Origin: a virus | Taxonomy: Duplodnaviria > Caudoviricetes | DNA: 64,000 nucleotides | Virus record (IMG/VR): IMGVR_UViG_3300009671_000009 | Location: 32,001 to 96,000 of that record | Direction: 5' to 3' (one strand) | Shown here: in pieces, positions 289-29,577 of the stretch | How the letters are laid out: the number at the start of each line of letters is the position of its first letter | Position numbering within the stretch: the first letter of the stretch is position 1 | Position numbers and translations under genes: made by a program | The notes under the pieces: model-generated | What the model saw: the letters and a program-made list of their open reading frames with translations, nothing else | Database searches by the model: none | What the model was told of the DNA's origin: nothing

Positions 289-317
289 TTGACAAAAGTA
301 ACAAAGCATGGTAGAAT
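289..317 (+). promoter_or_regulatory. sigmaA-type promoter driving the Y-RNA array
   Basis: TTGACA (289-294), 17-nt spacer, extended TG, TAGAAT (312-317); first RNA module starts about 8 nt downstream. Confidence 0.8.
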
Positions 318-324
318 AGGAAAT

Positions 325-390
325 GTGAGGCGTTTAAGAAGAGCTACTTCGATTTGGACGAAACACGGCTTTTCTAGCAATTTTCCTCAC
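325..390 (+). ncRNA. Y-RNA-like module A (minimal, small hairpin cargo)
   Basis: GTGAGG/CCTCAC terminal stem, GAGGCG..TACTTC motif, inner AGAAGAGC/GCTTTTCT stem; upstream of Ro60. Confidence 0.7.
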
Positions 391-408
391 GTATAATAAG
401 TATATAAG

Positions 409-552
409 ATCAAATGAGGCGTTTTGTGGCGATACTTCGACTTTTTTAGCTAAAGAGGGGTCTGGGTTCGAATCCCAGCTTACAGGGAAACCTGCATGTG
501 GTGTAACGGGAGCACGTAAAAGGACGCGTCACTACCTTTTTCCTCATTTGAT
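409..552 (+). ncRNA. Y-RNA (YrlA-like) module B with permuted tRNA-like domain
   Basis: ATCAAATGAGG/CCTCATTTGAT stem, TACTTC; T-arm CTGGG-TTCGAAT-CCCAG, then CAGG-GAAA-CCTG hairpin, then D-like arm. Confidence 0.75.
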
Positions 553-566
553 TTAAATAAGATTAC

Positions 567-709
567 AACTGAGGCGTTAGAAAGAGTTACTTCGCATTAG
601 GAGCGCGGCTGTGGAGGTTCAAGTCCTTCTCCCCTGACCAATTTTATATCAGGGGATAGCTTAACTGGCAGAGCACGTAAACGTTACTTTTTCGCTATTT
701 TCCTCAGTT
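567..709 (+). ncRNA. Y-RNA (YrlA-like) module C with permuted tRNA domain
   Basis: AACTGAGG/CCTCAGTT stem, TACTTC; T-arm GGAGG-TTCAAGT-CCTTC, acceptor TCCCCTG(ACCA)...CAGGGGA, D-arm TAGCTTAACTGGCAGAGC. Confidence 0.8.
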
Positions 710-718
710 AAGTTTAAC

Positions 719-813
719 AAATGGGGCGCTTGATTGGGATACTTCGAGGATTATCAAATCTTCACCAGGGCGGCAGCCGACATACATGCACCTAGCCTAT
801 ATTTACCCCATTT
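719..813 (+). ncRNA. Y-RNA-like module D
   Basis: AAATGGGG/CCCCATTT stem (compensatory variant of GAGG/CCTC), GGGGCG..TACTTC. Confidence 0.65.
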
Positions 814-827
814 AAATAAGCTCAATA

Positions 828-969
828 ACAGTGAGGCGTCAGATAGAGTTACTTCGTTGCAGCCAAAAATTGCGATATAGTTTAACACTGGTTAAAACAC
901 CAGGGAAACCTGGAGAATTCGGTTCAAGTCCGTCTTAATAGGAACTTTGTCGCCCATTTACCTCACTGT
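828..969 (+). ncRNA. Y-RNA-like module E with unpermuted tRNA-like domain (anticodon loop replaced by GAAA)
   Basis: ACAGTGAGG/CCTCACTGT stem, TACTTC; D-arm TAGTTTAACACTGGTTAAAAC, CCAGG-GAAA-CCTGG, T-arm CGG-TTCAAGT-CCG. Confidence 0.7.
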
Positions 970-976
970 AAATTTT

Positions 977-1108
977 AAACTTGGGTGTCGGTTACATACC
1001 GACAGGGAAACTAGATAGGGACGTGCCGCCCCTAATAACCTACCATTACCCGTTCTACTGCTTCTAGTGCTGTAGGTAGACGCTGTGAAAGTCAGCAAGC
1101 CCAAGTTT
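977..1108 (+). ncRNA. structured ncRNA of a different class embedded in the array
   Basis: AAACTTGGG/CCCAAGTTT terminal stem, internal hairpins (TGTCGG/CCGACA, TAGGG/CCCTA, GCTG/CAGC); lacks GAGGCG/TACTTC. Confidence 0.5.
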
Positions 1109-1124
1109 TTATAAAGTTTAATAG

Positions 1125-1340
1125 TAAGCGAAGCGCTTGAAGGGGTTACTTCTTAATTCTAAAAGATGAATTGGTTTAGAAGGAAACTTCTATCTCAAGC
1201 ACGACGGGCGGGTGCCACCCCGATATAACGGCATGGCTGCGTGAGCCAAGAGCGCTTTCACCCTAATGGCCTCCTTTCCCAAGTTAAGGCCCCTTTCGAG
1301 GATAATGGGTGGGTTCCCTCTTCACTAATTTCTTCGCTTA
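1125..1340 (+). ncRNA. Y-RNA-like module G with large multi-hairpin cargo
   Basis: TAAGCGAAG/CTTCGCTTA stem (compensatory), TGAAGGGG/CCTCTTCA inner stem, TACTTC, about 160-nt insert. Confidence 0.65.
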
Positions 1341-1386
1341 TTTAAGTTTCCCTTGATGGGTTTCCATTATAAGCATCACTCCTTCA

Positions 1387-1485
1387 TAACTAAACGAGGC
1401 GACAGTAAGGGATACTTCGCACAAGAACCTGGCCTAGAGCTTGGTAAAAAAACGAGCCTTTACAGCCATTTCCCTCGTTTAGTTA
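1387..1485 (+). ncRNA. Y-RNA-like module H
   Basis: TAACTAAACGAGG/CCTCGTTTAGTTA stem; GAGGCGACAGTAAGGGATACTTC identical to module K. Confidence 0.7.
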
Positions 1486-1548
1486 CGTAATCAAAGTGAG
1501 ATTTTACCTCGCTTTAAAATAAAAGTTTGTCCACTAAATTATACAACT

Positions 1549-1623
1549 AGAGAGGCGTCAGTCAGGGATACTTCGATAACTGTTAATTATCTAAAAAGGG
1601 CCTTGGCAAACTTTTTCCTCTCT
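1549..1623 (+). ncRNA. Y-RNA-like module I carrying an isolated anticodon-like stem-loop (GTT)
   Basis: AGAGAGG/CCTCTCT stem, TACTTC, cargo GATAA-CTGTTAA-TTATC. Confidence 0.7.
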
Positions 1624-1637
1624 CGATAAAGTTCAAC

Positions 1638-1780
1638 AATCGAGGCGACAGAGAGCGTTACTTCGCCTGTTAAGCCGTAGGTCGTAGGTTCGAATCCTCC
1701 CGCCCCCGTCAAATTATATGGGGGTGTAGCTCAGTGGATAGAGCAACGTAAACGTACGTTCTCGACCTTTTCCCTCGATT
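1638..1780 (+). ncRNA. Y-RNA (YrlA-like) module J, permuted tRNA-Asn-like domain
   Basis: AATCGAGG/CCTCGATT stem, TACTTC, CTGTTAA loop, T-arm GTAGG-TTCGAAT-CCTCC, CGCCCCC/GGGGGTG acceptor, D-arm TAGCTCAGTGGATAGAGC. Confidence 0.8.
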
Positions 1781-1790
1781 AAAAAAATTC

Positions 1791-1931
1791 AGATGAGGCG
1801 ACAGTAAGGGATACTTCAAAGGAAATCAGCGTGTCGTGGGTTCAAGTCCCACTCCCCTGACTAATCAGGGGGTAGCTCAGTTGGCAGAGCAACCGACAAT
1901 AAAGAGGCCTTTACAACCATTTTCCTCATCT
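1791..1931 (+). ncRNA. Y-RNA (YrlA-like) module K with permuted tRNA domain
   Basis: AGATGAGG/CCTCATCT stem, TACTTC, T-arm GTGGG-TTCAAGT-CCCAC, TCCCCTGA-CTAA-TCAGGGGG, D-arm TAGCTCAGTTGGCAGAGC. Confidence 0.8.
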
Positions 1932-1948
1932 AAATTTAAGCTAACTTT

Positions 1949-1990
1949 AACGGGAGTGGTCTATCTAAAGGTAGATTGCTCACGTTTTTT
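1949..1990 (+). terminator. intrinsic terminator-like hairpin between the RNA array and the Ro60 gene
   Basis: AACG-G-GAGTGGTCTATCT/AGGTAGATTGCTC-A-CGTT followed by a T-run. Confidence 0.55.
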
Positions 1991-2016
1991 ATTACTTCCA
2001 ATAAGGAGGCGTTCGA

Positions 2017-3519
2017 ATGGCAAGAGTAAAACAAATGTTTGGCACTCCGCAAATTCCTGTTGCGGACACCACGAATCGTGATGGGTATGATGCTTACACC
2101 CGAAGCATCTACGAGCAATTCGTTCAAACTCTGTTCTGCAATACACTGGGTAATACCTACTATGCAGACAGCAAAGAAATGCTCAAAGAAGCCAGCAAAG
2201 TGCACCAAGACATGCTGAAGGAAGACAAGTTCTTCTTTGCTGACGCGCTACCCGTAGCACGCCAAGAAGGGTGCATGAAACTTCAACCTGTCTATGCTCT
2301 GTCTTTGTTAGCTGCAACCGACCCAGGCTTGTTTGAAAAAACATTCCCTGGAGTGGTATTGATCCCATCCGATCTCCAAGACTTCATGACTATCCTTGAT
2401 AGTGCTGGTCGTGGACAAGGTGGCCGCGCTGTAAAGCGAACAGTTGCCAACTGGATGAATGAAAAGATGTCCGAATACTGGGCGATTAAATACGACGGTG
2501 ACGCTCGTGGCTATTCTCTCGGTGATTTGGTTCAGACCATTCATCCGAAACCTAAGAACAGCTTTGTCTCTGGTCTTTATGGTTACTTAATCGGCTCAGA
2601 AAAGGTTAATCTTGCAGAGTACAAGCAGTTAACTGCTTATCAGGCTCTGAAGAAGACGACCGATCCGAAGGAACAGATTCGTCTGGTGCGCGAAGGCAGA
2701 CTTCCCCACGAAGTCGTGACTGGCGTAACCAAAATGAGTCCCGACCTTTGGGACGCTCTTGTCCAAGATATGCCTGTCTTTGCTACCTTACGTAACCTGA
2801 ATGCCCTGGATAGGGTTGGTGTCCTCGACAAAAATCGTAAGATTATCGAAGAGAGACTCACCAATCCTGAAATACTGGCTAAGTCCAAGATTCTGCCGTT
2901 CAGGTTCCTAAATGCCTTCGACAACGTATCCAAGGCGTGGGTCAAAGATGCTCTACGGTCGGCGGTTGAAGCTACCTTCAATAACCTACCTGAGATCTCT
3001 GGCAAAACTGCGATCTTCTTGGACGTCTCTGGGTCGATGAGCGGAGAATATTTGAAGATCGGTTCGGTCTTCGCAATAGCTCTCTACAAAAAGACTCGTG
3101 GCAACGGTTTGTTCTGGTTGTTCGATACTCGTGTATTTGATGGACAACCTTCATTGCATGATTCGATCTTAACCCAAGCAAACAAAATCCACACCAGAGG
3201 CGGCACCAATACAGGTGCTCCGATGCGAAAATTATGGCAAGACCGTGAAAAAGTAGACAACATCATCATGATTACTGATGAACAGCAAAACACTGGGAAT
3301 CCGTTTTATGGTGAGTTAGCTGAATATCGGAGACACATTAACCCGAATGTAAAAACATTCATTATTGATATCTCTGGTTATCGGCAAGCCATGGTTCCTC
3401 AAGGCGATCCGAATACTTTCTACATCTACGGATGGTCGGATCAAGTCCTCAACTATATTTCAATGGCCTCCAAAGGCTTTGGAACTATCGTTGATGCGAT
3501 CAAAGCCAAAAGAAAGTAA
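2017..3519 (+). CDS. rsr: Ro60/TROVE-domain RNA-binding protein with C-terminal vWA domain
   Basis: 500 aa; TROVE-like features (N-terminal NRDGYDAY, MPVFATLRNL, ILPFRFLNA) and vWA MIDAS DVSGSM, GGT, ITDEQ; SD AAGGAGG. Confidence 0.9.
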   Translation: MARVKQMFGTPQIPVADTTNRDGYDAYTRSIYEQFVQTLFCNTLGNTYYADSKEMLKEASKVHQDMLKEDKFFFADALPVARQEGCMKLQPVYALSLLAATDPGLFEKTFPGVVLIPSDLQDFMTILDSAGRGQGGRAVKRTVANWMNEKMSEYWAIKYDGDARGYSLGDLVQTIHPKPKNSFVSGLYGYLIGSEKVNLAEYKQLTAYQALKKTTDPKEQIRLVREGRLPHEVVTGVTKMSPDLWDALVQDMPVFATLRNLNALDRVGVLDKNRKIIEERLTNPEILAKSKILPFRFLNAFDNVSKAWVKDALRSAVEATFNNLPEISGKTAIFLDVSGSMSGEYLKIGSVFAIALYKKTRGNGLFWLFDTRVFDGQPSLHDSILTQANKIHTRGGTNTGAPMRKLWQDREKVDNIIMITDEQQNTGNPFYGELAEYRRHINPNVKTFIIDISGYRQAMVPQGDPNTFYIYGWSDQVLNYISMASKGFGTIVDAIKAKRK

Positions 3520-3527
3520 CAATTAGG

Positions 3528-3555
3528 AGGCGATCAGAAATGATCGCCTTTTTTT
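3528..3555 (+). terminator. rho-independent terminator
   Basis: AGGCGATCA-GAAA-TGATCGCCT followed by a T-run. Confidence 0.8.
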
Positions 3556-3564
3556 GTTCCCGAG

Positions 3565-3894
3565 GTGAGAACATTGGATAGTAATTGGATATATGAAATG
3601 CAAAACAATCTAGTTCACAAGTGCTATCATTGTTATGAACAGCATAAAAGTGAAACTAAAATGACACTAAAATCGCAACATAAAGATAAAGTTATAGCCC
3701 AATGCTGTTATCTTACTTATCTGTGTAAACATTTTTACCACATTGATAATATAACTGATCAAGCTTTCTATGATGATTGTTTAGATCACAACAGGCTAGG
3801 AACGTGCACTGCGTTTGTTAAAAAGAAACCTCCTGTACCGTTTAAGATAAAGTTACTTCGATGGTGGAAAAGGAAATTTGGCAATGTTCACTAA
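3565..3894 (+). CDS. hypothetical Cys-rich protein
   Basis: 109 aa ORF overlapping the next start. Confidence 0.5.
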   Translation: MRTLDSNWIYEMQNNLVHKCYHCYEQHKSETKMTLKSQHKDKVIAQCCYLTYLCKHFYHIDNITDQAFYDDCLDHNRLGTCTAFVKKKPPVPFKIKLLRWWKRKFGNVH

Positions 3895-4687
3895 ACTTAT
3901 AGATAAATATCTCAACGACATCTTTACTCCAGAGCAGCAGAAGATAGACCATGTGTCAAAATTTGTAGACTTTATCTATAGGCAACCTCAAGGAAACGCC
4001 GAGGTGTCTAGAAAGGTTAAAGGAAGCCAATATAACCAAGCGCGTCTATCTGTTGGATTCTGCCACAATACTTTAGAAAGTCTATTTAGAGTAATCAAGT
4101 TTCTCTCGGGTATCGAGGGAGTAAACTTAGATCCTATGTTGGAATTTTTACTTCAATCAGATCAATCACAAATCCAACTGATAGTTTTTGGTCTAGAGCT
4201 GGGAGCCTCTGCCAGCAAGACACGATATAAAGTTCACATTCAGTATTACAAACATCCTCGAATCGTGGATGTTATATTGAACAATCCCTGCTCTAATCCT
4301 AAATCGTTTAATTTCTTACCGTTTGGAGAAGCCACTGTGGGATTTGATTTATTTCTGGATGGAAGAACAGAATATCGGGTATATGTTTCATTCGATACTC
4401 CGCAACGGTATAAACTTTTATTCGGAAGATTCTTTGAGCCACATATTGTAGATGCCCTATATCGTTCGGAAAACGCATGGCTTGCCTGGAAAAACAGCAA
4501 CTCTGAAACATTTGTTTATTTCCTGGATGATAAGTTAGATCCAATAATTGATAGTTTACAATTTGAGGATCTAGACCAGAATATGTTGGACTTTAATGGA
4601 ATTCGTCCTTATATTTTTGGTACAACTCTTTCTGACTTACAAACTAGGAAACTTAACGAATATAATATTTATTTTTCATTAGCTTAA
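3878..4687 (+). CDS. LynF/TruF/PagF-like (ABBA-fold) peptide prenyltransferase homolog
   Basis: motifs EVSRKV..QARLSVGF, VFGLEL...RYKVHI and VGFDLFLDGRTEYRVY resemble cyanobactin F-family proteins; likely start ATG 3884. Confidence 0.6.
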   Translation: MAMFTKLIDKYLNDIFTPEQQKIDHVSKFVDFIYRQPQGNAEVSRKVKGSQYNQARLSVGFCHNTLESLFRVIKFLSGIEGVNLDPMLEFLLQSDQSQIQLIVFGLELGASASKTRYKVHIQYYKHPRIVDVILNNPCSNPKSFNFLPFGEATVGFDLFLDGRTEYRVYVSFDTPQRYKLLFGRFFEPHIVDALYRSENAWLAWKNSNSETFVYFLDDKLDPIIDSLQFEDLDQNMLDFNGIRPYIFGTTLSDLQTRKLNEYNIYFSLA

Positions 4688-7737: not shown

Positions 7738-7998
7738 ATGGATCCCATAACTCTATTGGTCATGGCAGGAGTTGCCTTTGGAGTCAACGTAGTATGTGAT
7801 AAGGTTGACTTTTTAAGGAATATTACTCACAGTCGAGTAATGAGTGCTTCCACCGAAGAGCTAATCAAACAACTCAAGGGAGTACAAACTAACCCCGAAT
7901 TATTTACAGCCATGGTAAGTAGCAAAGAAGGAAGAACACTAGATGAAACTACTTGTGGGTTTAACCCCCCAAAGGACAGCATTAACACTCAGCTTTGA
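7738..7998 (+). CDS. hypothetical membrane-anchored protein
   Basis: hydrophobic N-terminus, SD AAGGAG. Confidence 0.6.
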   Translation: MDPITLLVMAGVAFGVNVVCDKVDFLRNITHSRVMSASTEELIKQLKGVQTNPELFTAMVSSKEGRTLDETTCGFNPPKDSINTQL

Positions 7999-10900
7999 TT
8001 ACAATCCTGCCATCATTACTCGGCTCAAGAACCGAGTTTATGGGCGTGCATATGATGGAGATCTAAAATGCTGGGTGTTGCCATTAGCAAGCTTTGACGA
8101 TCTTGTTCAAGAGTTTGGAGCAATGATTGAATTAACTGTGCCATTTAAAGAAATAGTGGAGGCTATAGATAGTATTGCCCCAGTAGTTGGTACTGTTGAT
8201 ATGCAAGCAGCTCAAGTTTTAAAACTAAAACCCTATGACTATCAAATTATAGGAGGAGCGGCGTTTCTTCCTAATATTAAATGTGGAATACTGGCAGATG
8301 TGCCAGGGTTAGGTAAGTGCCTAACGCCTGACTCTCGCATTTACATGAATGGTGCTAATACTACACTTCAGCAAATATGGGATAGCTATGTACGAGAATT
8401 GTCTTTTGACGGAGAAGGATATTGGTCTTCTCCGTCAAAAGACCTGTATGTTCCATCGTTGGACAATGGCAAGTTAATATATTCTAAGGTTAAACGAATA
8501 TATCGACAATGGATAGATGCACCCATCAAAGTCATAAAACTCACAAATGGTTCTGTTTTGAGAGCAACATTAACTGAAAAATTATTCGATGGCTATAGCT
8601 GGAGCAATAATTTGCAACCTGGAGATTGTGTAGCTATTCCAAATGTATTGCCTGATTTCAAACACAATATTAATGCGCAGTCGCAAATCGTGAAACTAAT
8701 TGCATGGCAACTAGCTGAGGGACACGAAGCTTCCCATGGCCACAGTTTCAGGATATATCAAGATAATATTGATGTATTGAACCATATAGCAAGTTTATTA
8801 TCCTATTTGAATATTCAATTTGATATAAAGCATGAACCTGGGAAATGTCCATATATAAGAGGCCGTAGTAAAGAATATCATAATATAATGACTAGTTATG
8901 ACTACGCCTGGGGAGCCAAGTCTAAAGACAAAAGAATTCCTAGCTTTATTTTTAATTTGCCTGACAAACTGCTACGGACTTTTCTTTCGGTCTTTTTTGA
9001 CGCAGAATCAAATGTTAATGTGTCAACTAGCAACATGGAAATAACAAGTGCTTCTTCTGAAATAATATTTGGTATTAAACAACTCTTGCTTCGTTTTGGC
9101 ATTAAAATGAATACTGCAGAATACATGAAATGTGCCACTAACGGAACAAGAATTAAAAGAAAATATTACAGAGGATATGTCTCTGGAGAAGACCTTGTGA
9201 GATTTTATCATACTATAGGCTATTGCTACGAATATAAAATGTCTGCATTGTCAAAGGTAGCCAATAAAAAACATAATAGCAACATATATGTATATCCAAT
9301 TAAAAAAGCATTTGAGAACTTCACAGATTCTGTGAAGATTCCTCCAAGATATTTCAAGTACAGGAAAGATTACTTGACTACAAATAAACTACCTAGTATA
9401 GATGGCTTAAGAAAGATGTCAAAAGGTTTTGATTATGTATTGTCTGGAGAAGCTGAATCAGACTATAAGAAGCTAAAGCCTAGTAAATGGACAGTCAAGA
9501 CCTTGGAATCTTTCAAAAACGCAGATTACTTACAAATTGCCAACGTAAAAGATAAAATAAATCATTTTTTGCACAGTGACGTAGCATATGTACGAATAGA
9601 CTCAATAAGCTATGAACAATATTCTGGCTGGGTATATGATTTGGAAATAGAAAATACTCACAACTTTATTGCAGAAGGAATGTGTGTTCATAATACAATT
9701 CAGACATTTTTGGGCTTTGCTTCACTGTGTGAGCGAGGCTTAGCCCAAAAGTGCCTTGTCTTTTGCAAAGCAAACCTGAAATCGCAGTGGTTGTCAGAGT
9801 TAGAGAAATTTACTTCTTACAAAGGAATCAAAATCAAAGGAACACCAGAACAAAGGCTTGCTTTGTACGAGGAGGCAGCAAAACCTGAATATCAGTTTAT
9901 ATTTGTTAACTACGAATTCCTGATTCATGACAAAAAATATGTTAAAGAGTGCGAACGCAAGACCAAAGAAAATGAAAAGCTAAAAGCGGCAGGTAAGAAA
10001 ACTAAAAGAGCCGCGAAGGGCTTTGACGATTTCGAGAATCTAGAATATCTAATGAGGCAGTGTCAAGTCCTTGTAATGGACGAGGCCCAAAAAGTAAAGA
10101 ATGATTCATCTCAAATTCATAAGAATCTGTTTAAAATGGTATATGGCACGAAAACATATCCATCGATACCGCCAGAATACCGCTGGCTACTAACAGGAAC
10201 CCCAATTGAGAATGAACCTGAAGATATTTATAACTTATTTAAGTTTGTAAACCAGTCCGTACTTGGACATAATCCAAATACCTTCAAATACCGTTATTAT
10301 GAAGGAAGGTACCACGAAAAAGTAAGAAAAGACATGCTTAAAGACCTCAGTATGAGGATCGCACCGTATATGTTACGGAGAACCCAAGAAAATGTCAAAC
10401 GAGCGTTTCCTAAAGTCCGTATTGATGAAATGCTTCTAGACATGACAAATGATCAAATTATCTTACATGATATTCTTAAAGAAATTACTAGGGATCTTAT
10501 AGATGGTGTAAAACACCCTGAAATAGGAAACGATGATTATTCACCAATCGGGATATTTAGTTTGTTGCTAAGAGTTGCAGATAATCCTGATTTGCTATTT
10601 ACATCTGAAAGTGACCTGGCTAGAAGTCTAGCTAAGAAACATTTAAAAACTCCTGGGCATGAATGCCCTAAAATAGAATGGATATGCGATTACTTAGAAG
10701 CACGCAAACAATTTGAACCTGATGCAAAGACCATTATATTTACCAGAAGTGATGATATGGCACATCTTACACGCGAATCATTACTTCAAGGTACTTACAA
10801 AGACAACGATATCATCTTGTTTGTAGGAGGCATGTCCGAGAAACAGCGGGATACAGCAAAGGCAAGATTTTGGAAAGACGGAAAGATCTTTATATCAACT

Positions 10901-11182
10901 GATGCTGGTTCGGAAGGGCTTAACCTCCAATGTGCCAACGTGGAAATCAACATTGATCTTCCGCCTACTCCGTCAAGACTTGCACAGAGAATTGGCCGCA
11001 TTAAACGAGATCAATCTGAGTTTTCACATGTTAGGATTATTAATCTTATTTCAAAAGATTCTATAGATGAGCGAATCCTCAAAATAATCTATGATAAACA
11101 ATCTATTATTGACAGTGTCATTGAAGGTAATATTGCAGACATCAATCTTACGCAAAGCGTGCTTCTGGAACTACTGTCGTAA
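7943..11182 (+). CDS. SNF2-family helicase containing an intein
   Basis: ADVPGLGK|intein|TIQT, MDEAQ, LLTGTP, STDAGSEGLNLQ, QRIGRI. Confidence 0.9.
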   Translation: MKLLVGLTPQRTALTLSFDYNPAIITRLKNRVYGRAYDGDLKCWVLPLASFDDLVQEFGAMIELTVPFKEIVEAIDSIAPVVGTVDMQAAQVLKLKPYDYQIIGGAAFLPNIKCGILADVPGLGKCLTPDSRIYMNGANTTLQQIWDSYVRELSFDGEGYWSSPSKDLYVPSLDNGKLIYSKVKRIYRQWIDAPIKVIKLTNGSVLRATLTEKLFDGYSWSNNLQPGDCVAIPNVLPDFKHNINAQSQIVKLIAWQLAEGHEASHGHSFRIYQDNIDVLNHIASLLSYLNIQFDIKHEPGKCPYIRGRSKEYHNIMTSYDYAWGAKSKDKRIPSFIFNLPDKLLRTFLSVFFDAESNVNVSTSNMEITSASSEIIFGIKQLLLRFGIKMNTAEYMKCATNGTRIKRKYYRGYVSGEDLVRFYHTIGYCYEYKMSALSKVANKKHNSNIYVYPIKKAFENFTDSVKIPPRYFKYRKDYLTTNKLPSIDGLRKMSKGFDYVLSGEAESDYKKLKPSKWTVKTLESFKNADYLQIANVKDKINHFLHSDVAYVRIDSISYEQYSGWVYDLEIENTHNFIAEGMCVHNTIQTFLGFASLCERGLAQKCLVFCKANLKSQWLSELEKFTSYKGIKIKGTPEQRLALYEEAAKPEYQFIFVNYEFLIHDKKYVKECERKTKENEKLKAAGKKTKRAAKGFDDFENLEYLMRQCQVLVMDEAQKVKNDSSQIHKNLFKMVYGTKTYPSIPPEYRWLLTGTPIENEPEDIYNLFKFVNQSVLGHNPNTFKYRYYEGRYHEKVRKDMLKDLSMRIAPYMLRRTQENVKRAFPKVRIDEMLLDMTNDQIILHDILKEITRDLIDGVKHPEIGNDDYSPIGIFSLLLRVADNPDLLFTSESDLARSLAKKHLKTPGHECPKIEWICDYLEARKQFEPDAKTIIFTRSDDMAHLTRESLLQGTYKDNDIILFVGGMSEKQRDTAKARFWKDGKIFISTDAGSEGLNLQCANVEINIDLPPTPSRLAQRIGRIKRDQSEFSHVRIINLISKDSIDERILKIIYDKQSIIDSVIEGNIADINLTQSVLLELLS
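8318..9694 (+). mobile_element. intein (~459 aa) with LAGLIDADG-type endonuclease in helicase Walker A
   Basis: starts CLTPD, ends VYDLEIENTHNFIAEGMCVHN|T; internal WQLAEG and FFDAES blocks. Confidence 0.9.
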
Positions 11183-27943: not shown

Positions 27944-28468
27944 ATGTATGATAAAGATGATTTTATTATTAGAGAATTCCCAGGTAGCAAAAGAAAACTC
28001 TACAGAGTTATATGTGATATATGTGGAGAAAAACAAGGATATTCATATCCAAGTTCAAAATTTAACTATTGCAAGAAGTGTCAATATGCAAAACTTTCTC
28101 AACAGTTTTCACGAGAAAAAATAGTAGGATTCTGTGAAGTATGCGGCACTAAAATAGAAAGATCTAAAAGCCAATGGGATCGTGCCAAACACCATGTATG
28201 TAGTAACAGTTGTCTAGGTATTTTTAGGCGAAAAGACATAACACAAGTTTCTAGAAGTCATTTAAGAATAAAAATGCTCCAATCAGGAATCCAACCTGCA
28301 TGTGTTATTTGCGGACATGATCATATATGGAATCTACAAGTACACCATAAGCAATTTGTTTGCATGGAAGGTGCTAATAAATTAGATAACCTTCAGTGGA
28401 TGTGTAAAAATTGCCACGGGGATTTGCATTATATGGAAGGAGAAGATACTGAAGAATGTCAAAACTAA
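27944..28468 (+). CDS. HNH endonuclease with zinc fingers
   Basis: CVICG..LQVHH..NKLDNLQWMCKNCH. Confidence 0.8.
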   Translation: MYDKDDFIIREFPGSKRKLYRVICDICGEKQGYSYPSSKFNYCKKCQYAKLSQQFSREKIVGFCEVCGTKIERSKSQWDRAKHHVCSNSCLGIFRRKDITQVSRSHLRIKMLQSGIQPACVICGHDHIWNLQVHHKQFVCMEGANKLDNLQWMCKNCHGDLHYMEGEDTEECQN

Positions 28469-29577
28469 TTGTTGAAATTGTCAGAATGAAATCTATGGAA
28501 AAGATTCCTACTGCTGATACTCTTTTAATTACTCAAGTAAAAGGCTGGTATTGTATCCTCAAAGATGATGGTACAATTAAGGATGGGGATCTTGCAGTAT
28601 ACATACCTATCGATTCAATCGTCCCTAACGAATTAGCTGACAAGTACAATCTCGAATACCTTAAAAATGGCAGTCGAGTTCGTACAGTCAAGCTCAGAGG
28701 CTACATAAGTCAGGGACTTGTTCTTCCTATTGATTGTCTCCCCGATGGAGACTGGAAAGAGGGCGACGATGTAGCTGAAGTTCTTGGTATTAAGAAATGG
28801 GAACCACCCAGTGCTGCTTGGCAACAGCCAGCAGCTAAGGGTAAGCGCACACGGAGCATGAAGAACAATCCCAATCCAGACTTTCGTAAATACACAGATA
28901 TTGACAATATCAAAAACTATCCAGGTATTTTCAATGAAGGTGACGAAGTTGTAGTCACAGAAAAGATACACGGTACGAATTTCAGAGTAGCGTACATAAA
29001 AAGATATACCAAAGGGGTATGGAGCAAGATTATATCTTGGCTCCTAGGAAAATACCAATTCCTAGTAGGTTCACACAATGTTCAGATCGGAGAAGGTCGT
29101 GAATGTGCATTTTATGGCGCTGACGTGTATAGCAAAATTGCTAAGCGGTATAAGCTGTACGACGTCATGAAAGAAAACCCTGGCTGTGAACTCTTCGGTG
29201 AAATCTACGGAGTTGACAGCGATACAGGGGCTAAGATCCAAGACCTTACATACGGAAAACCCGAACTTGACGTTGTATTTTTTGATCTTATCAAGGATGG
29301 ACAGTATGTGCCATTCGATGAGTTCATGAACTTCTGCAATCGATACAGCTTACCCACTGTGCCACTGCTATTCAGAGGGATTTTGACCCAAGGTATCATA
29401 GAAGCCTGTACTGCAGGCGAATCAGTGCTGGCCAACATTAATGGCGCTAAACAAATTCGTGAGGGAGCTGTTGTTAAGGATCCACTGGAGACCAGTCATC
29501 CAAGACTGGGTCGTAAGATACTTAAATCAATTAGCGAAGATTACCTATTACGTAAAGACGGTACTGAAAATCACTGA
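28456..29577 (+). CDS. RNA ligase, DRB0094 family
   Basis: N-terminal OB domain (RTVKLRGYISQGL), EKIHGTN, FGEIYG, FFDL, REGAVVK, LKSISEDYL. Confidence 0.88.
   Translation: MSKLIVEIVRMKSMEKIPTADTLLITQVKGWYCILKDDGTIKDGDLAVYIPIDSIVPNELADKYNLEYLKNGSRVRTVKLRGYISQGLVLPIDCLPDGDWKEGDDVAEVLGIKKWEPPSAAWQQPAAKGKRTRSMKNNPNPDFRKYTDIDNIKNYPGIFNEGDEVVVTEKIHGTNFRVAYIKRYTKGVWSKIISWLLGKYQFLVGSHNVQIGEGRECAFYGADVYSKIAKRYKLYDVMKENPGCELFGEIYGVDSDTGAKIQDLTYGKPELDVVFFDLIKDGQYVPFDEFMNFCNRYSLPTVPLLFRGILTQGIIEACTAGESVLANINGAKQIREGAVVKDPLETSHPRLGRKILKSISEDYLLRKDGTENH

What the first reader, a model, noticed from the sequence alone, without database searches (positions are those of the whole stretch)
289..3555. Ro60 gene preceded by a tandem array of ten Y-RNA-like modules with interchangeable cargo domains
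Seen: from one sigmaA promoter, ten units (325, 409, 567, 719, 828, 1125, 1387, 1549, 1638, 1791) share a scaffold of terminal stem + GAGGCG, inner stem, TACTTC, cargo, inner stem', pyrimidine run and CCTC. They are separated by short AT-rich spacers and are followed directly by a TROVE+vWA gene. The terminal stem covaries (GAGG/CCTC, GGGG/CCCC, GAAG/CTTC), supporting a real RNA structure. Cargo ranges from about 20 to 160 nt. Established: bacterial Ro60 (Rsr) binds Y RNAs whose second module, often tRNA-like (YrlA), tethers effectors; characterised loci have few Y RNAs. Inference: this is a phage cassette library in which one Ro60 is loaded with many RNA adaptors or decoys, possibly to counter host tRNA-targeting defences or to recruit different RNA-processing enzymes.
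Basis: partly seen in the sequence, partly recalled or inferred. Interest (0 to 1): 0.9.

Follow-up and report, generated by a model that had tools for sequence, protein, structure and literature searches.

The report
Ten-gene Y RNA array, phage Ro60
A 224-kb uncultured phage carries ten small RNA genes in a row in front of its gene for the ring-shaped RNA-binding protein Ro60. All ten share the protein's presumed docking stem but carry different second parts, which is the largest and most varied set of such partner ("Y") RNAs I could find.

Summary
Ten + strand units (323-1931) share one scaffold: a 7-12 bp terminal stem ending GAGG/CCTC, GGCG, a 7-bp inner stem with an invariant G.U, and UACUUC. 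They lie between a strong sigma-70-type promoter (289-317) and a true Ro60 gene (2017-3519, TROVE plus vWA).

A covariance model built only from RNAs of other genomes finds nine units (E 2e-7 to 2e-11) and nothing else in the 64 kb. Both stems covary (0 of 500 shuffles).

The same scaffold sits 1-4 times upstream of the Ro60 genes of Paenibacillus, Cohnella, Brevibacillus and Thermoanaerobacterium, whose proteins are 52-62% identical to the phage's. The phage array is therefore an expansion of a host-type Y RNA locus. A second viral contig has at least seven units.

- Four cargos are YrlA-type tRNA mimics (T arm, acceptor-like stem, D arm).
- One has the opposite arm order (D arm, GAAA-capped stem, T arm).
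- Five have no tRNA-like part (20-166 nt).

The function is inferred: processed adaptors that dock different partners onto Ro60. I found no published array of this size (published: 2-4). Earlier notes of this scan report similar arrays beside Ro60-like genes in other phages; I did not check them. Verdict: a new variant of a known kind.

The parts
289..317 (+). Sigma-70-type promoter, TTGACA-17 nt-TAGAAT with an extended -10 TG. The predicted start, near 323, coincides with the first base of unit 1.
   Evidence: 11 of 12 matches, TG present; sequence.
323..392 (+). Unit 1: minimal Y RNA with an 8-bp terminal stem, GGCG, inner stem, UACUUCG and a 20-nt single-hairpin cargo.
   Evidence: model R1 42 bits, E 8.5e-9.
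408..553 (+). Unit 2: YrlA-type. 12-bp terminal stem; cargo is a V hairpin, T arm, GAAA-capped acceptor-like stem and a divergent D arm.
   Evidence: R1 45.8 bits; R2 60.4 bits, E 1.3e-13, full length.
567..709 (+). Unit 3: YrlA-type (T arm, 8-bp acceptor-like stem-loop, D arm).
   Evidence: R1 45.7 bits; R2 82.6 bits, E 2e-19; Rfam YrlA 18.6 bits.
719..813 (+). Unit 4: GGGG/CCCC variant of the terminal stem, with a 45-nt two-hairpin cargo that is not tRNA-like.
   Evidence: R1 36.4 bits, E 2e-7.
828..969 (+). Unit 5: tRNA-like cargo in the opposite order (hairpin, D arm, 5-bp stem capped by GAAA in place of an anticodon loop, T arm). This is the topology published for Deinococcus Yrn1.
   Evidence: R1 42.7 bits; Rfam tRNA model positions 7-64, 21.4 bits; R2 matches the scaffold only.
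977..1117 (+). Module X: a structured RNA closed by a 9-10 bp terminal stem (AAACUUGGG/CCCAAGUUU) but lacking the GGCG...UACUUC scaffold. Its nature is unknown.
   Evidence: Fold at -44 kcal/mol, z -2.5; no + strand R1 match over 977-1117 with filters off; no Rfam hit; no homologue found.
1123..1342 (+). Unit 6: GAAG/CUUC variant with an 11-bp terminal stem and a 7/7 inner stem. Its 166-nt multi-helix cargo includes a GAAA-capped hairpin and has no known relative.
   Evidence: R1 finds only its 5' half (E 0.07), so it is assigned by direct reading.
1388..1484 (+). Unit 7: short Y RNA with a 12-bp terminal stem. Its inner scaffold is nearly identical to that of unit 10, but the cargo is only 40 nt.
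   Evidence: R1 51.9 bits, E 2.4e-11; scaffold similarity 0.89 to unit 10; alignment.
1493..1515 (+). Remnant: an 8-bp stem (AAAGUGAG/CUCGCUUU) that resembles a terminal stem without inner scaffold or cargo. Probably a collapsed unit.
   Evidence: Fold; R1 9.9 bits, E 0.04. Weak.
1549..1623 (+). Unit 8: minimal Y RNA with a 7-bp terminal stem and a 27-nt hairpin cargo.
   Evidence: R1 45.3 bits, E 1.2e-9.
1638..1780 (+). Unit 9: YrlA-type and the best match to the bacterial class (T arm, 7-bp acceptor-like stem, canonical D arm).
   Evidence: R2 107.8 bits, E 6e-26; Rfam YrlA 32.6 bits.
1791..1931 (+). Unit 10: YrlA-type.
   Evidence: R2 99.1 bits, E 1e-23; Rfam YrlA 34.1 bits over the full model. 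blastn hits an unannotated stretch about 0.5 kb upstream of the Ro60 gene of Streptomyces phage BRock.
1954..1990 (+). Terminator-like hairpin (12 pairs, only 4 G-C) followed by T6, between the array and the Ro60 start. Probably a leaky terminator that sets an excess of RNA over protein.
   Evidence: fold at -17.7 kcal/mol, z -3.8.
2017..3519 (+). Ro60 (Rsr) gene, 500 aa: TROVE ring plus vWA domain with an intact MIDAS motif (DxSxS, T, D). AAGGAGG ribosome-binding site at 2004-2010.
   Evidence: Pfam TROVE 61.7 bits, vWA_Ro60 25.1 bits; PDB 1yvp E 5e-21, 2nvo, 9kop; 52-62% identical to Bacillota TROVE proteins; invariant D336/S338/S340/T397/D421.
3525..3558 (+). Strong intrinsic terminator that ends the operon.
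   Evidence: 12 pairs, T-run.

Best explanation
This is a phage operon of ten Y RNA genes plus the gene of their partner protein Ro60.

**Shown.**
- The ten RNAs share a two-helix 'handle': a terminal stem ending GAGG/CCUC, then GGCG, an inner stem with an invariant G.U, then UACUUC.
- This handle is homologous to the handle of RNAs found directly upstream of Ro60 genes throughout Bacillota.
- It corresponds to the published Ro60-binding stem of YrlA (the GNCG part of the GNCGAA motif).
- The second module differs from unit to unit: four YrlA-type tRNA mimics, one tRNA mimic with the opposite arm order, three single hairpins, one double hairpin and one 166-nt multi-helix domain.

**Inferred.**
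- The strong promoter at 289-317 makes one roughly 1.65-kb precursor that starts at the first base of unit 1.
- Host RNases cut the 5-15 nt AU-rich spacers and release monomers.
- Most transcripts stop at the leaky hairpin at 1954-1990. A minority read through into rsr, so the RNAs outnumber the protein.
- Each RNA docks by its handle on the outer face of the Ro60 ring. Its own cargo then tethers a different partner: PNPase or another exoribonuclease, as in the Deinococcus, Salmonella and Thermus-phage complexes, or enzymes that recognise the tRNA elbow. Alternatively the cargo gates the ring's cavity.
- Because the handle is the host-type one, the phage RNAs could also load onto, or compete for, a host Ro60.
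For: **The array is real.**
- The motif is exclusive to this place and strand.
- Model R1, built only from RNAs of other genomes, finds 9 of 10 units full length with E 2e-7 to 2e-11. It finds nothing else in 64 kb and nothing in 669 kb of unrelated viral DNA.
- Both helices covary among the phage units.

**It belongs to a Ro60-linked family.**
- R1 gives 207 hits in 80 bacterial Ro60 loci, all on the strand of the TROVE gene; nearly all lie within about 1 kb upstream of it and the rest 2-5 kb upstream.
- The bacterial YrlA-like class covaries strongly: 97.6% of cells paired and 21 of 32 pairs with double changes. It has the same invariant G.U.
- R2, again built from other genomes, scores units 9, 10, 3 and 2 at 108, 99, 83 and 60 bits.

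**The protein is a true Ro60**.

**Transcription signals** are.

**Processing is plausible.** In related contigs (L083, L099, L102) the same units are interleaved with tRNA genes and, in L083 and L099, a tmRNA gene, which must be cut out of precursors.

**Published analogues.**
- Y RNAs tether Ro60 to PNPase (PMC4201824).
- Thermus phage phiLo Ro60 binds two upstream Y-like RNAs and forms a complex with host PNPase (PMC12135203).
- Three very abundant RNAs lie upstream of an Rsr-like gene in a Listeria phage (PMC12282133).
Against: - There are no expression, processing or binding data for this uncultured phage.
- Rfam's YrlA model stays below its threshold (34 against 69 bits).
- The 'AA' of the published GNCGAA motif is not conserved here.
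- Unit 6 is not recovered whole by the model.
- Five cargos have no relative anywhere I could search, so their folds rest on single-sequence prediction (unit 6 z only -1.45).
- Module X shows that not everything in the transcript is a Ro60-handle RNA.
- No partner enzyme is encoded next to the array. There is no RtcB in the genome, and the neighbouring genes are not conserved with Ro60.
Confidence: 0.6

Rival explanations
1. The 1.65-kb transcript is not cut into monomers. It acts as one multivalent RNA, either a string of up to ten Ro60 docking sites that gathers or sequesters phage or host Ro60 rings, or a long structured leader that lets Ro60 regulate its own synthesis.
For: - There is a single strong promoter, and internal promoter-like sites do not exceed the shuffled expectation.
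- Spacers are as short as 5 nt.
- The only terminator-like site lies after unit 10.
- The gene depends on read-through of the array.
Against: - Characterised bacterial Y RNAs are discrete small RNAs, 80-130 nt in all characterised cases (PMC4201824).
- In related contigs the units alternate with tRNA genes that must be excised.
- Each unit closes on itself with its own covarying terminal stem, as independent molecules do.
Confidence: 0.15
2. The tRNA-like units work mainly as decoys or competitors for host factors that recognise the tRNA elbow or body, such as RNase P, modification enzymes, T-box leaders or tRNA-directed defence nucleases. Ro60 serves only to stabilise them.
For: - Five units keep the T-loop and D-loop nucleotides that form a tRNA elbow.
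- The array lies inside the phage's tRNA region: 24 tRNA genes, a CCA-adding enzyme 4.6 kb upstream, an RNA ligase and a mini-tmRNA.
- YrlA is a substrate of tRNA enzymes (PMC4201824).
Against: - None of the five has an anticodon loop, so anticodon nucleases, the best-known tRNA-directed defences, would not be decoyed.
- Five of the ten units have no tRNA-like part yet keep the handle equally well.
- The conserved element is the Ro60 handle, not the cargo.
Confidence: 0.12
3. The array is largely evolutionary debris. Repeated tandem duplication of one or two functional Y RNAs was followed by deletions in the cargo, so most units have no function of their own.
For: - Units 7 and 10 are recent duplicates, and unit 7 looks like a unit that lost its tRNA-like part.
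- A collapsed remnant stem lies at 1493-1515.
- Short units 1, 7 and 8 carry only a hairpin.
Against: - All ten keep both helices through compensatory changes (93.8% paired) and the invariant motifs. Decaying copies would lose them, as the remnant did.
- Short, non-tRNA-like units with the same handle are conserved across many Bacillota genera (class B).
- A second, unrelated phage has the same mixture of types.
Confidence: 0.08

Closest known systems
Bacterial Rsr (Ro60) with YrlA/YrlB Y RNAs (Salmonella, Mycobacterium smegmatis; Rfam RF02553; Chen et al. 2014, PMC4201824)
   Same: - The RNAs are encoded next to the Ro60 gene and on its strand.
- The 5' and 3' ends pair into a stem that carries the Ro60 site (GNCG...).
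- The second module mimics tRNA with T arm, acceptor-like stem and D arm in that order. Four phage units match this architecture.
- A shorter companion RNA (YrlB) exists.
   Different: - Ten units instead of two.
- The handle has GGCG-NN rather than GNCGAA.
- Rfam scores are 19-34 bits against a threshold of 69.
- Half of the cargos are not tRNA-like.
- The locus is viral and is not linked to rtcBA.
   Same: - The handle is identical, including the invariant G.U and UACUUC.
- The position directly upstream of the TROVE gene is the same.
- The mixture of unit types is the same: about 132 nt YrlA-like, about 95 nt without a tRNA part, about 112 nt with a T arm only.
- The proteins are 52-62% identical.
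   Different: - At most 4 units per locus in 80 genomes, against 10 here.
- No terminator-like hairpin is evident in the 25-70 nt between the last unit and the gene (not scanned).
- None of the 5 viral and 31 metagenome loci beyond L083 has more than 4 units.
Thermus phage phiLo Ro60 with Yrl1 and Yrl2 (PMC12135203; PDB 9KOP, 9L5Y)
   Same: - A phage-encoded Ro60 with Y-like RNAs upstream of the gene.
- Binding, and a ternary complex with host PNPase, were shown there. This supports the proposed mode of action.
   Different: - Two RNAs, both simple stem-bulge-stem types.
- The protein is only distantly related (E 6e-17).
- There is no tRNA-like diversity.
Deinococcus radiodurans Rsr with Yrn1/Yrn2 and RNAs a-d upstream of rsr; the Ro60-Y RNA-PNPase machine (cited in PMC4201824)
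   Same: - Several RNAs lie upstream of rsr.
- Yrn1 has its D and T arms in the order seen in phage unit 5.
- The Y RNA works as a tether between Ro60 and an exoribonuclease.
   Different: - Four RNAs at most, of which one is the main partner.
- There is no shared, sharply conserved handle across all of them.
Listeria phage CKA15 (P100-like): three highly transcribed non-coding regions within 2 kb upstream of an Rsr-like gene (PMC12282133)
   Same: - A phage of a Bacillota host.
- Abundant non-coding RNAs lie upstream of, and on the same strand as, a Ro60-like gene.
   Different: - Three regions, not analysed structurally.
- Their identity as Y RNAs was only suggested.

Membership tests
Y RNA, bacterial YrlA type (Rfam RF02553) | Encoded within about 4 kb of a Ro60 (TROVE) gene, on the same strand | tested here: met
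   Units at 323-1931 and gene at 2017-3519, all on the + strand.
Y RNA, bacterial YrlA type (Rfam RF02553) | The 5' and 3' ends pair into a long stem carrying the conserved Ro60-binding motif (GNCGAA N0-1 G) | tested here: inconclusive
   The stem is present and covaries in all ten units. GGCG (GNCG) is present in nine units, and AGCG with a compensating U in unit 6. The following AA is not conserved: TT, AC, TC or CT.
Y RNA, bacterial YrlA type (Rfam RF02553) | tRNA-like module with T arm, acceptor-like stem-loop and D arm | tested here: met
   Met by units 2, 3, 9 and 10 (R2 60-108 bits; Rfam partial matches). Unit 5 has the arms in the reverse order. Units 1, 4, 6, 7 and 8 lack the module, so they resemble YrlB-like companions rather than YrlA.
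Y RNA, bacterial YrlA type (Rfam RF02553) | Score at or above Rfam's gathering threshold (69 bits) | tested here: not met
   Best scores are 34.1, 32.6 and 18.6 bits. The related Bacillota-type units in L082, L083, L099, L102 and L103 also stay below threshold at 33-47 bits, so the Rfam model under-represents this lineage.
Y RNA, bacterial YrlA type (Rfam RF02553) | Physical association with Ro60 | not testable with these tools
   This needs RIP-seq or gel-shift assays.
Bacillota Ro60-linked handle RNAs (model R1, defined here) | Full-length match to a covariance model built from members in other genomes | tested here: met
   Nine of ten units match at E 2e-7 to 2e-11 over model positions 1-98. 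Unit 6 matches only in part. The negative control gave 0 hits in 669 kb.
Ro60 / Rsr protein (TROVE ring plus vWA) | TROVE domain above Pfam's cut-off and homology to solved Ro60 structures | tested here: met
   TROVE 61.7 bits against a cut-off of 23. PDB 1yvp E 5e-21, 2nvo E 5e-18, 9kop E 6e-17.
Ro60 / Rsr protein (TROVE ring plus vWA) | C-terminal vWA domain with a MIDAS motif | tested here: met
   vWA_Ro60 scores 25.1 bits, just under the cut-off of 27.7. The precomputed Pfam column lists PF25045 for this protein's own cluster and most relatives. D336-x-S338-x-S340, T397 and D421 are invariant in the alignment.

The most novel reading that the evidence does not exclude
One phage Ro60 ring is programmed by ten different adaptor RNAs. 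This would be a multiplexed ribonucleoprotein hub in which a constant handle docks on Ro60 and each exchangeable cargo brings a different host enzyme or RNA target. The phage could then redirect several branches of host RNA decay, repair or tRNA metabolism from a single small operon. Such expanded arrays would have arisen independently in distinct phage lineages.
Probability: 0.3. Interest if true: 0.85.

Novelty: new variant of a known kind. Interest (0 to 1): 0.68.

Why it matters
**An open question becomes testable.** Y RNAs are thought to be modular, with one part binding Ro60 and the other choosing what Ro60 does. Only a few natural second modules are known, and their partners are mostly unidentified. 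This operon offers ten natural variants on one handle, including a recent pair (units 7 and 10) with nearly the same inner handle and different cargo. That is a ready-made panel for pull-downs, binding assays and structures.

**The family gets a sharp definition.** The survey defines a Bacillota-wide Ro60 handle: GGCG, an invariant G.U, and UACUUC. Rfam's YrlA model misses it at threshold. These bacteria usually carry three to four distinct Y RNAs, not one or two.

**Phage biology.** Ro60 and its Y RNAs join the tRNA genes, the CCA-adding enzyme, the RNA ligase and the mini-tmRNA as part of a large RNA-maintenance or takeover region. A second, unrelated phage with at least seven units suggests that expansion is selected in viruses.

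Tried and rejected
**Database searches that gave little.**
- Rfam at gathering thresholds found no Y RNA in the window. Only sub-threshold YrlA hits appear.
Conservation of the orphan cargos could therefore not be tested.
- The metagenome scan returned no close relative with upstream sequence.
None of the 80 loci listed and fetched (of 120 matching stretches) matched model R1, so the scan served only as a negative control.

**Searches for kin of the phage.**
- A search with a 1191-aa protein found none.
- Bacillus phage G, reported to have Ro60 and Y-like RNA, has only a very divergent TROVE gene and no R1-type unit.

**Context and cargo.**
- The neighbouring genes (109-aa ORF, DUF5838 protein, 72-aa ORF, 67-aa ORF) have no counterpart in any related Ro60 locus.
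- There is no RtcB in the genome.
- Short-word blastn of the five non-tRNA cargos and of module X against all fetched loci and the whole phage genome found only themselves.
- MAFFT plus RNAalifold recovered only the terminal stem in the mixed alignment, because the 3' linker length jitters. The inner stem was supplied by hand and then confirmed on the model-based alignment.

**Papers.** The 2020 Annual Review and the 2018 Microbiology Spectrum review on bacterial Y RNAs are not held, and the supplementary tables of Chen et al. 2014 are not held either. The published maximum number of units per locus therefore rests on main texts.

**Rejected readings.** These are not protein-coding genes, because no ORF fits. 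They are not ordinary tRNA genes: ARAGORN finds none in the array and the arm order is permuted. They are not on the minus strand, because the D-arm orientation and both models fit only the + strand.

Full report
**Setting.** The window is bases 32001-96000 of a complete 224,466-bp virus record with direct terminal repeats. The genome has 24 tRNA genes, all on the + strand between 24.4 and 90.7 kb. The finding lies inside this tRNA-rich region.

The pattern [AG]GCG-N11/12-TACTTC occurs ten times between 320 and 1820, always on the + strand. It occurs nowhere else in proper form in the window or in the whole genome. For each 5' motif there is a 3' partner that gives 8-9 of 9 terminal pairs and 6-7 of 7 inner pairs.

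The unit limits are:

| Unit | Coordinates |
|---|---|
| U1 | 323-392 |
| U2 | 408-553 |
| U3 | 567-709 |
| U4 | 719-813 |
| U5 | 828-969 |
| U6 | 1123-1342 |
| U7 | 1388-1484 |
| U8 | 1549-1623 |
| U9 | 1638-1780 |
| U10 | 1791-1931 |

The terminal stems (7-12 bp) differ in sequence from unit to unit but each fits its own partner. Over the five variable positions, 44 of 50 cognate pairs form, against a mean of 2.7 of 5 for non-cognate partners. None of 100,000 permutations reaches the observed value. No ORF of 50 codons or more lies between 315 and 1835.

**An independent test.** I built a covariance model (R1) from 29 units taken only from other genomes.
- It finds nine of the ten window units full length, E 2e-7 to 2e-11. 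It finds nothing else on either strand of the 64 kb.
- It finds nothing in 669 kb of unrelated viral DNA that contains chance matches to the 5' motif.
- On the nine units aligned by the model, 93.8% of cells pair and 10 of 16 pairs change on both sides. No shuffle of 500 reaches this, and slid controls pair 40-48%.
- One inner-stem pair is G.U in all nine units.
- Unit 6, with a 166-nt cargo, is recovered only in part. I accept it from direct reading: an 11-bp terminal stem with the compensated GAAG/CUUC variant, and a 7/7 inner stem.

**What the scaffold is.** The downstream ORF (2017-3519) is a true Ro60.
- Pfam TROVE scores 61.7 bits and the Ro60 vWA domain 25.1 bits.
- It is homologous to Xenopus Ro60 (1yvp, E 5e-21), human RO60 (9nen, E 9.5e-20), Deinococcus Rsr (2nvo) and Thermus phage phiLo Ro60 (9kop).
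- The MIDAS residues are intact.
- Its nearest named relatives are TROVE proteins of Bacillota at 52-62% identity.

In 80 Bacillota genome loci the same scaffold lies upstream of the TROVE gene. R1 gives 207 hits there, every one on the gene's strand, with at most four per locus.

These bacterial RNAs fall into recurring classes:
- about 132 nt, YrlA-like, with T arm, acceptor-like stem and D arm;
- about 95 nt, with no tRNA-like part;
- about 112 nt, with a T arm only;
- sometimes a fourth unit about 2 kb upstream.

The YrlA-like class covaries strongly: 97.6% of cells pair, 21 of 32 pairs change on both sides, and the same G.U is invariant in 31 of 31 sequences.

Compared with the Rfam YrlA consensus, GGCG corresponds to the GNCG of the published Ro60-binding motif GNCGAA (PMC4201824). 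The following AA is not kept in this lineage. Rfam's model stays below threshold both here and in the related loci.

So the ten phage units are members of a Ro60-linked RNA family of Bacillota. The phage locus is an expansion of the host-type arrangement.

**The cargos.** A second model (R2), again built only from other genomes, scores units 9, 10, 3 and 2 at 108, 99, 83 and 60 bits over its full length. These four are YrlA-type tRNA mimics.
- Unit 5 matches R2 only in the scaffold. It carries a D arm, a 5-bp stem capped by GAAA, and a T arm in normal tRNA order. This is the topology described for Deinococcus Yrn1 (PMC4201824).
- All five tRNA-like cargos keep the D-loop GG and the T-loop UUC that form a tRNA elbow. 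None has an anticodon loop.
- Units 1, 7 and 8 carry a single hairpin, unit 4 two hairpins, and unit 6 a 166-nt multi-helix domain.
- These five cargos have no relative in any fetched locus or elsewhere in the genome.
- Units 7 and 10 share an almost identical inner scaffold but differ in terminal stem and cargo. This shows directly that cargo changes on a constant handle, possibly by deletion.

**Extra elements.**
- Between units 5 and 6 lies a 141-nt structured module (977-1117). It is closed by its own 9-10 bp stem but lacks the handle.
- At 1493-1515 a bare 8-bp stem looks like a collapsed unit.

**Transcription.**
- The only strong promoter-like site is TTGACA-17-TAGAAT with an extended -10 TG at 289-317. 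It places the start at about 323, the first base of unit 1.
- Spacers are mostly 5-15 nt and 64-100% A+T, with recurrent AAUAAG and AAGUU words.
- After unit 10 comes a hairpin of 12 pairs, only four of them G-C, followed by T6 (1954-1990). Then come AAGGAGG and the Ro60 start codon. A strong terminator follows the gene.
- I infer one precursor, frequent termination before rsr, and processing into monomers.
- Processing is supported only indirectly. In related contigs the same units alternate with tRNA genes and, in two of them, a tmRNA gene.

**Other phages.** Viral contig L083 (128.9 kb, G+C-rich, Ro60 47% identical) has six R1 hits. It also has one more unit, read by eye, with UUCUUC in place of UACUUC (L083:1078-1207). 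These follow a promoter-like site and precede a tmRNA, tRNAs and the TROVE gene. Types are mixed as in the window. Metagenome contigs L099, L102 and L103 have three to four units with tRNA genes interspersed or nearby. The window's ten is the largest array among the roughly 120 loci examined.

**Context.**
- A CCA-adding enzyme (PolyA_pol plus HD) lies 4.6 kb upstream.
- An RNA ligase lies at window 28456-29577.
- There is no RtcB.
- The immediate neighbours are an HNH endonuclease, a sigma factor, an intein-bearing SNF2 helicase and an actin-like partition protein. They are unrelated to RNA metabolism and are not conserved with Ro60 elsewhere.

**Mechanism.** By analogy with three published systems, I propose that each processed unit docks on Ro60 through the handle and uses its cargo to tether a different partner or to gate the ring. 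The systems are:
- the Deinococcus and Salmonella Ro60-Y RNA-PNPase complexes (PMC4201824);
- phage phiLo Ro60, which binds two upstream Y-like RNAs and host PNPase (PMC12135203);
- the abundant RNAs upstream of an Rsr-like gene in a Listeria phage (PMC12282133).

Because the handle is the host-type one, cross-talk with a host Ro60 is possible. The identity of the array is well supported, at about 0.9. Processing and Ro60 binding are likely. Cargo-specific recruitment is conjecture. I put overall confidence at 0.6.

**Rivals.**
- An uncut multivalent transcript.
- Ro60-independent tRNA-elbow decoys.
- Largely decayed duplicates.

**Novelty.** Papers I could search describe 2-4 Y RNAs per locus. 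Chen et al. 2014 report 355 YrlA candidates in 276 genomes. I found no description of a ten-unit, mixed-cargo array. Two reviews and the supplementary tables were not available.

Earlier notes of this scan report arrays of 3-11 handle-sharing RNAs next to Ro60-like (mostly DUF2828) genes in crAss-like, freshwater and mycobacterial phages. I did not test those notes, and they concern a different protein family and handle.

I class this finding as a new variant of a known kind.

Noticed in passing
window 977-1117: A 141-nt structured RNA module sits inside the array. It is closed by its own 9-10 bp stem but lacks the Ro60 handle, has no Rfam match and has no homologue. It may be a partner of a different protein or a very diverged unit.
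   Followed up: partly
L002-L081 (for example L025:4551-4931, L034:2210-4935): Bacillota Ro60 genes are typically preceded by three tandem Y RNAs of distinct, conserved classes (about 132, 95 and 112 nt) that share one handle, with a fourth sometimes about 2 kb upstream. Rfam's YrlA model misses the family at its threshold. One G.U pair in the inner stem is invariant in 31 of 31 bacterial and 9 of 9 phage units.
   Followed up: partly
L083:427-2383: A second viral contig (128.9 kb, G+C-rich) has at least seven handle units behind a promoter-like site, followed directly by a full-length tmRNA (159 bits) and tRNAs. L083:630-1075 looks like a tRNA 5' half and a T arm separated by about 370 nt, possibly an intron-containing tRNA.
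   Followed up: no
window 7943-11182: An SNF2-family helicase gene is interrupted by an intein with a LAGLIDADG homing-endonuclease domain (Pfam Intein_splicing, LAGLIDADG_3).
   Followed up: no
genome 26227-27654 (5.7 kb before the window start): The phage encodes a CCA-adding tRNA nucleotidyltransferase with an HD domain, amid eight tRNA genes. ARAGORN also calls an odd tRNA with a two-base 'ct' anticodon at genome 29274-29350.
   Followed up: no
window 3878-4687: The gene after Ro60 and a 109-aa ORF encodes a DUF5838 protein (40 bits). It has no counterpart in any related Ro60 locus, so a link to Ro60 is not indicated.
   Followed up: partly
window 1388-1484 and 1791-1931: Units 7 and 10 have 21 of 21 identical bases in the 5' core and 14 of 16 in the 3' core, yet different terminal stems and cargos. 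This is a recent duplication followed by cargo loss or exchange.
   Followed up: yes
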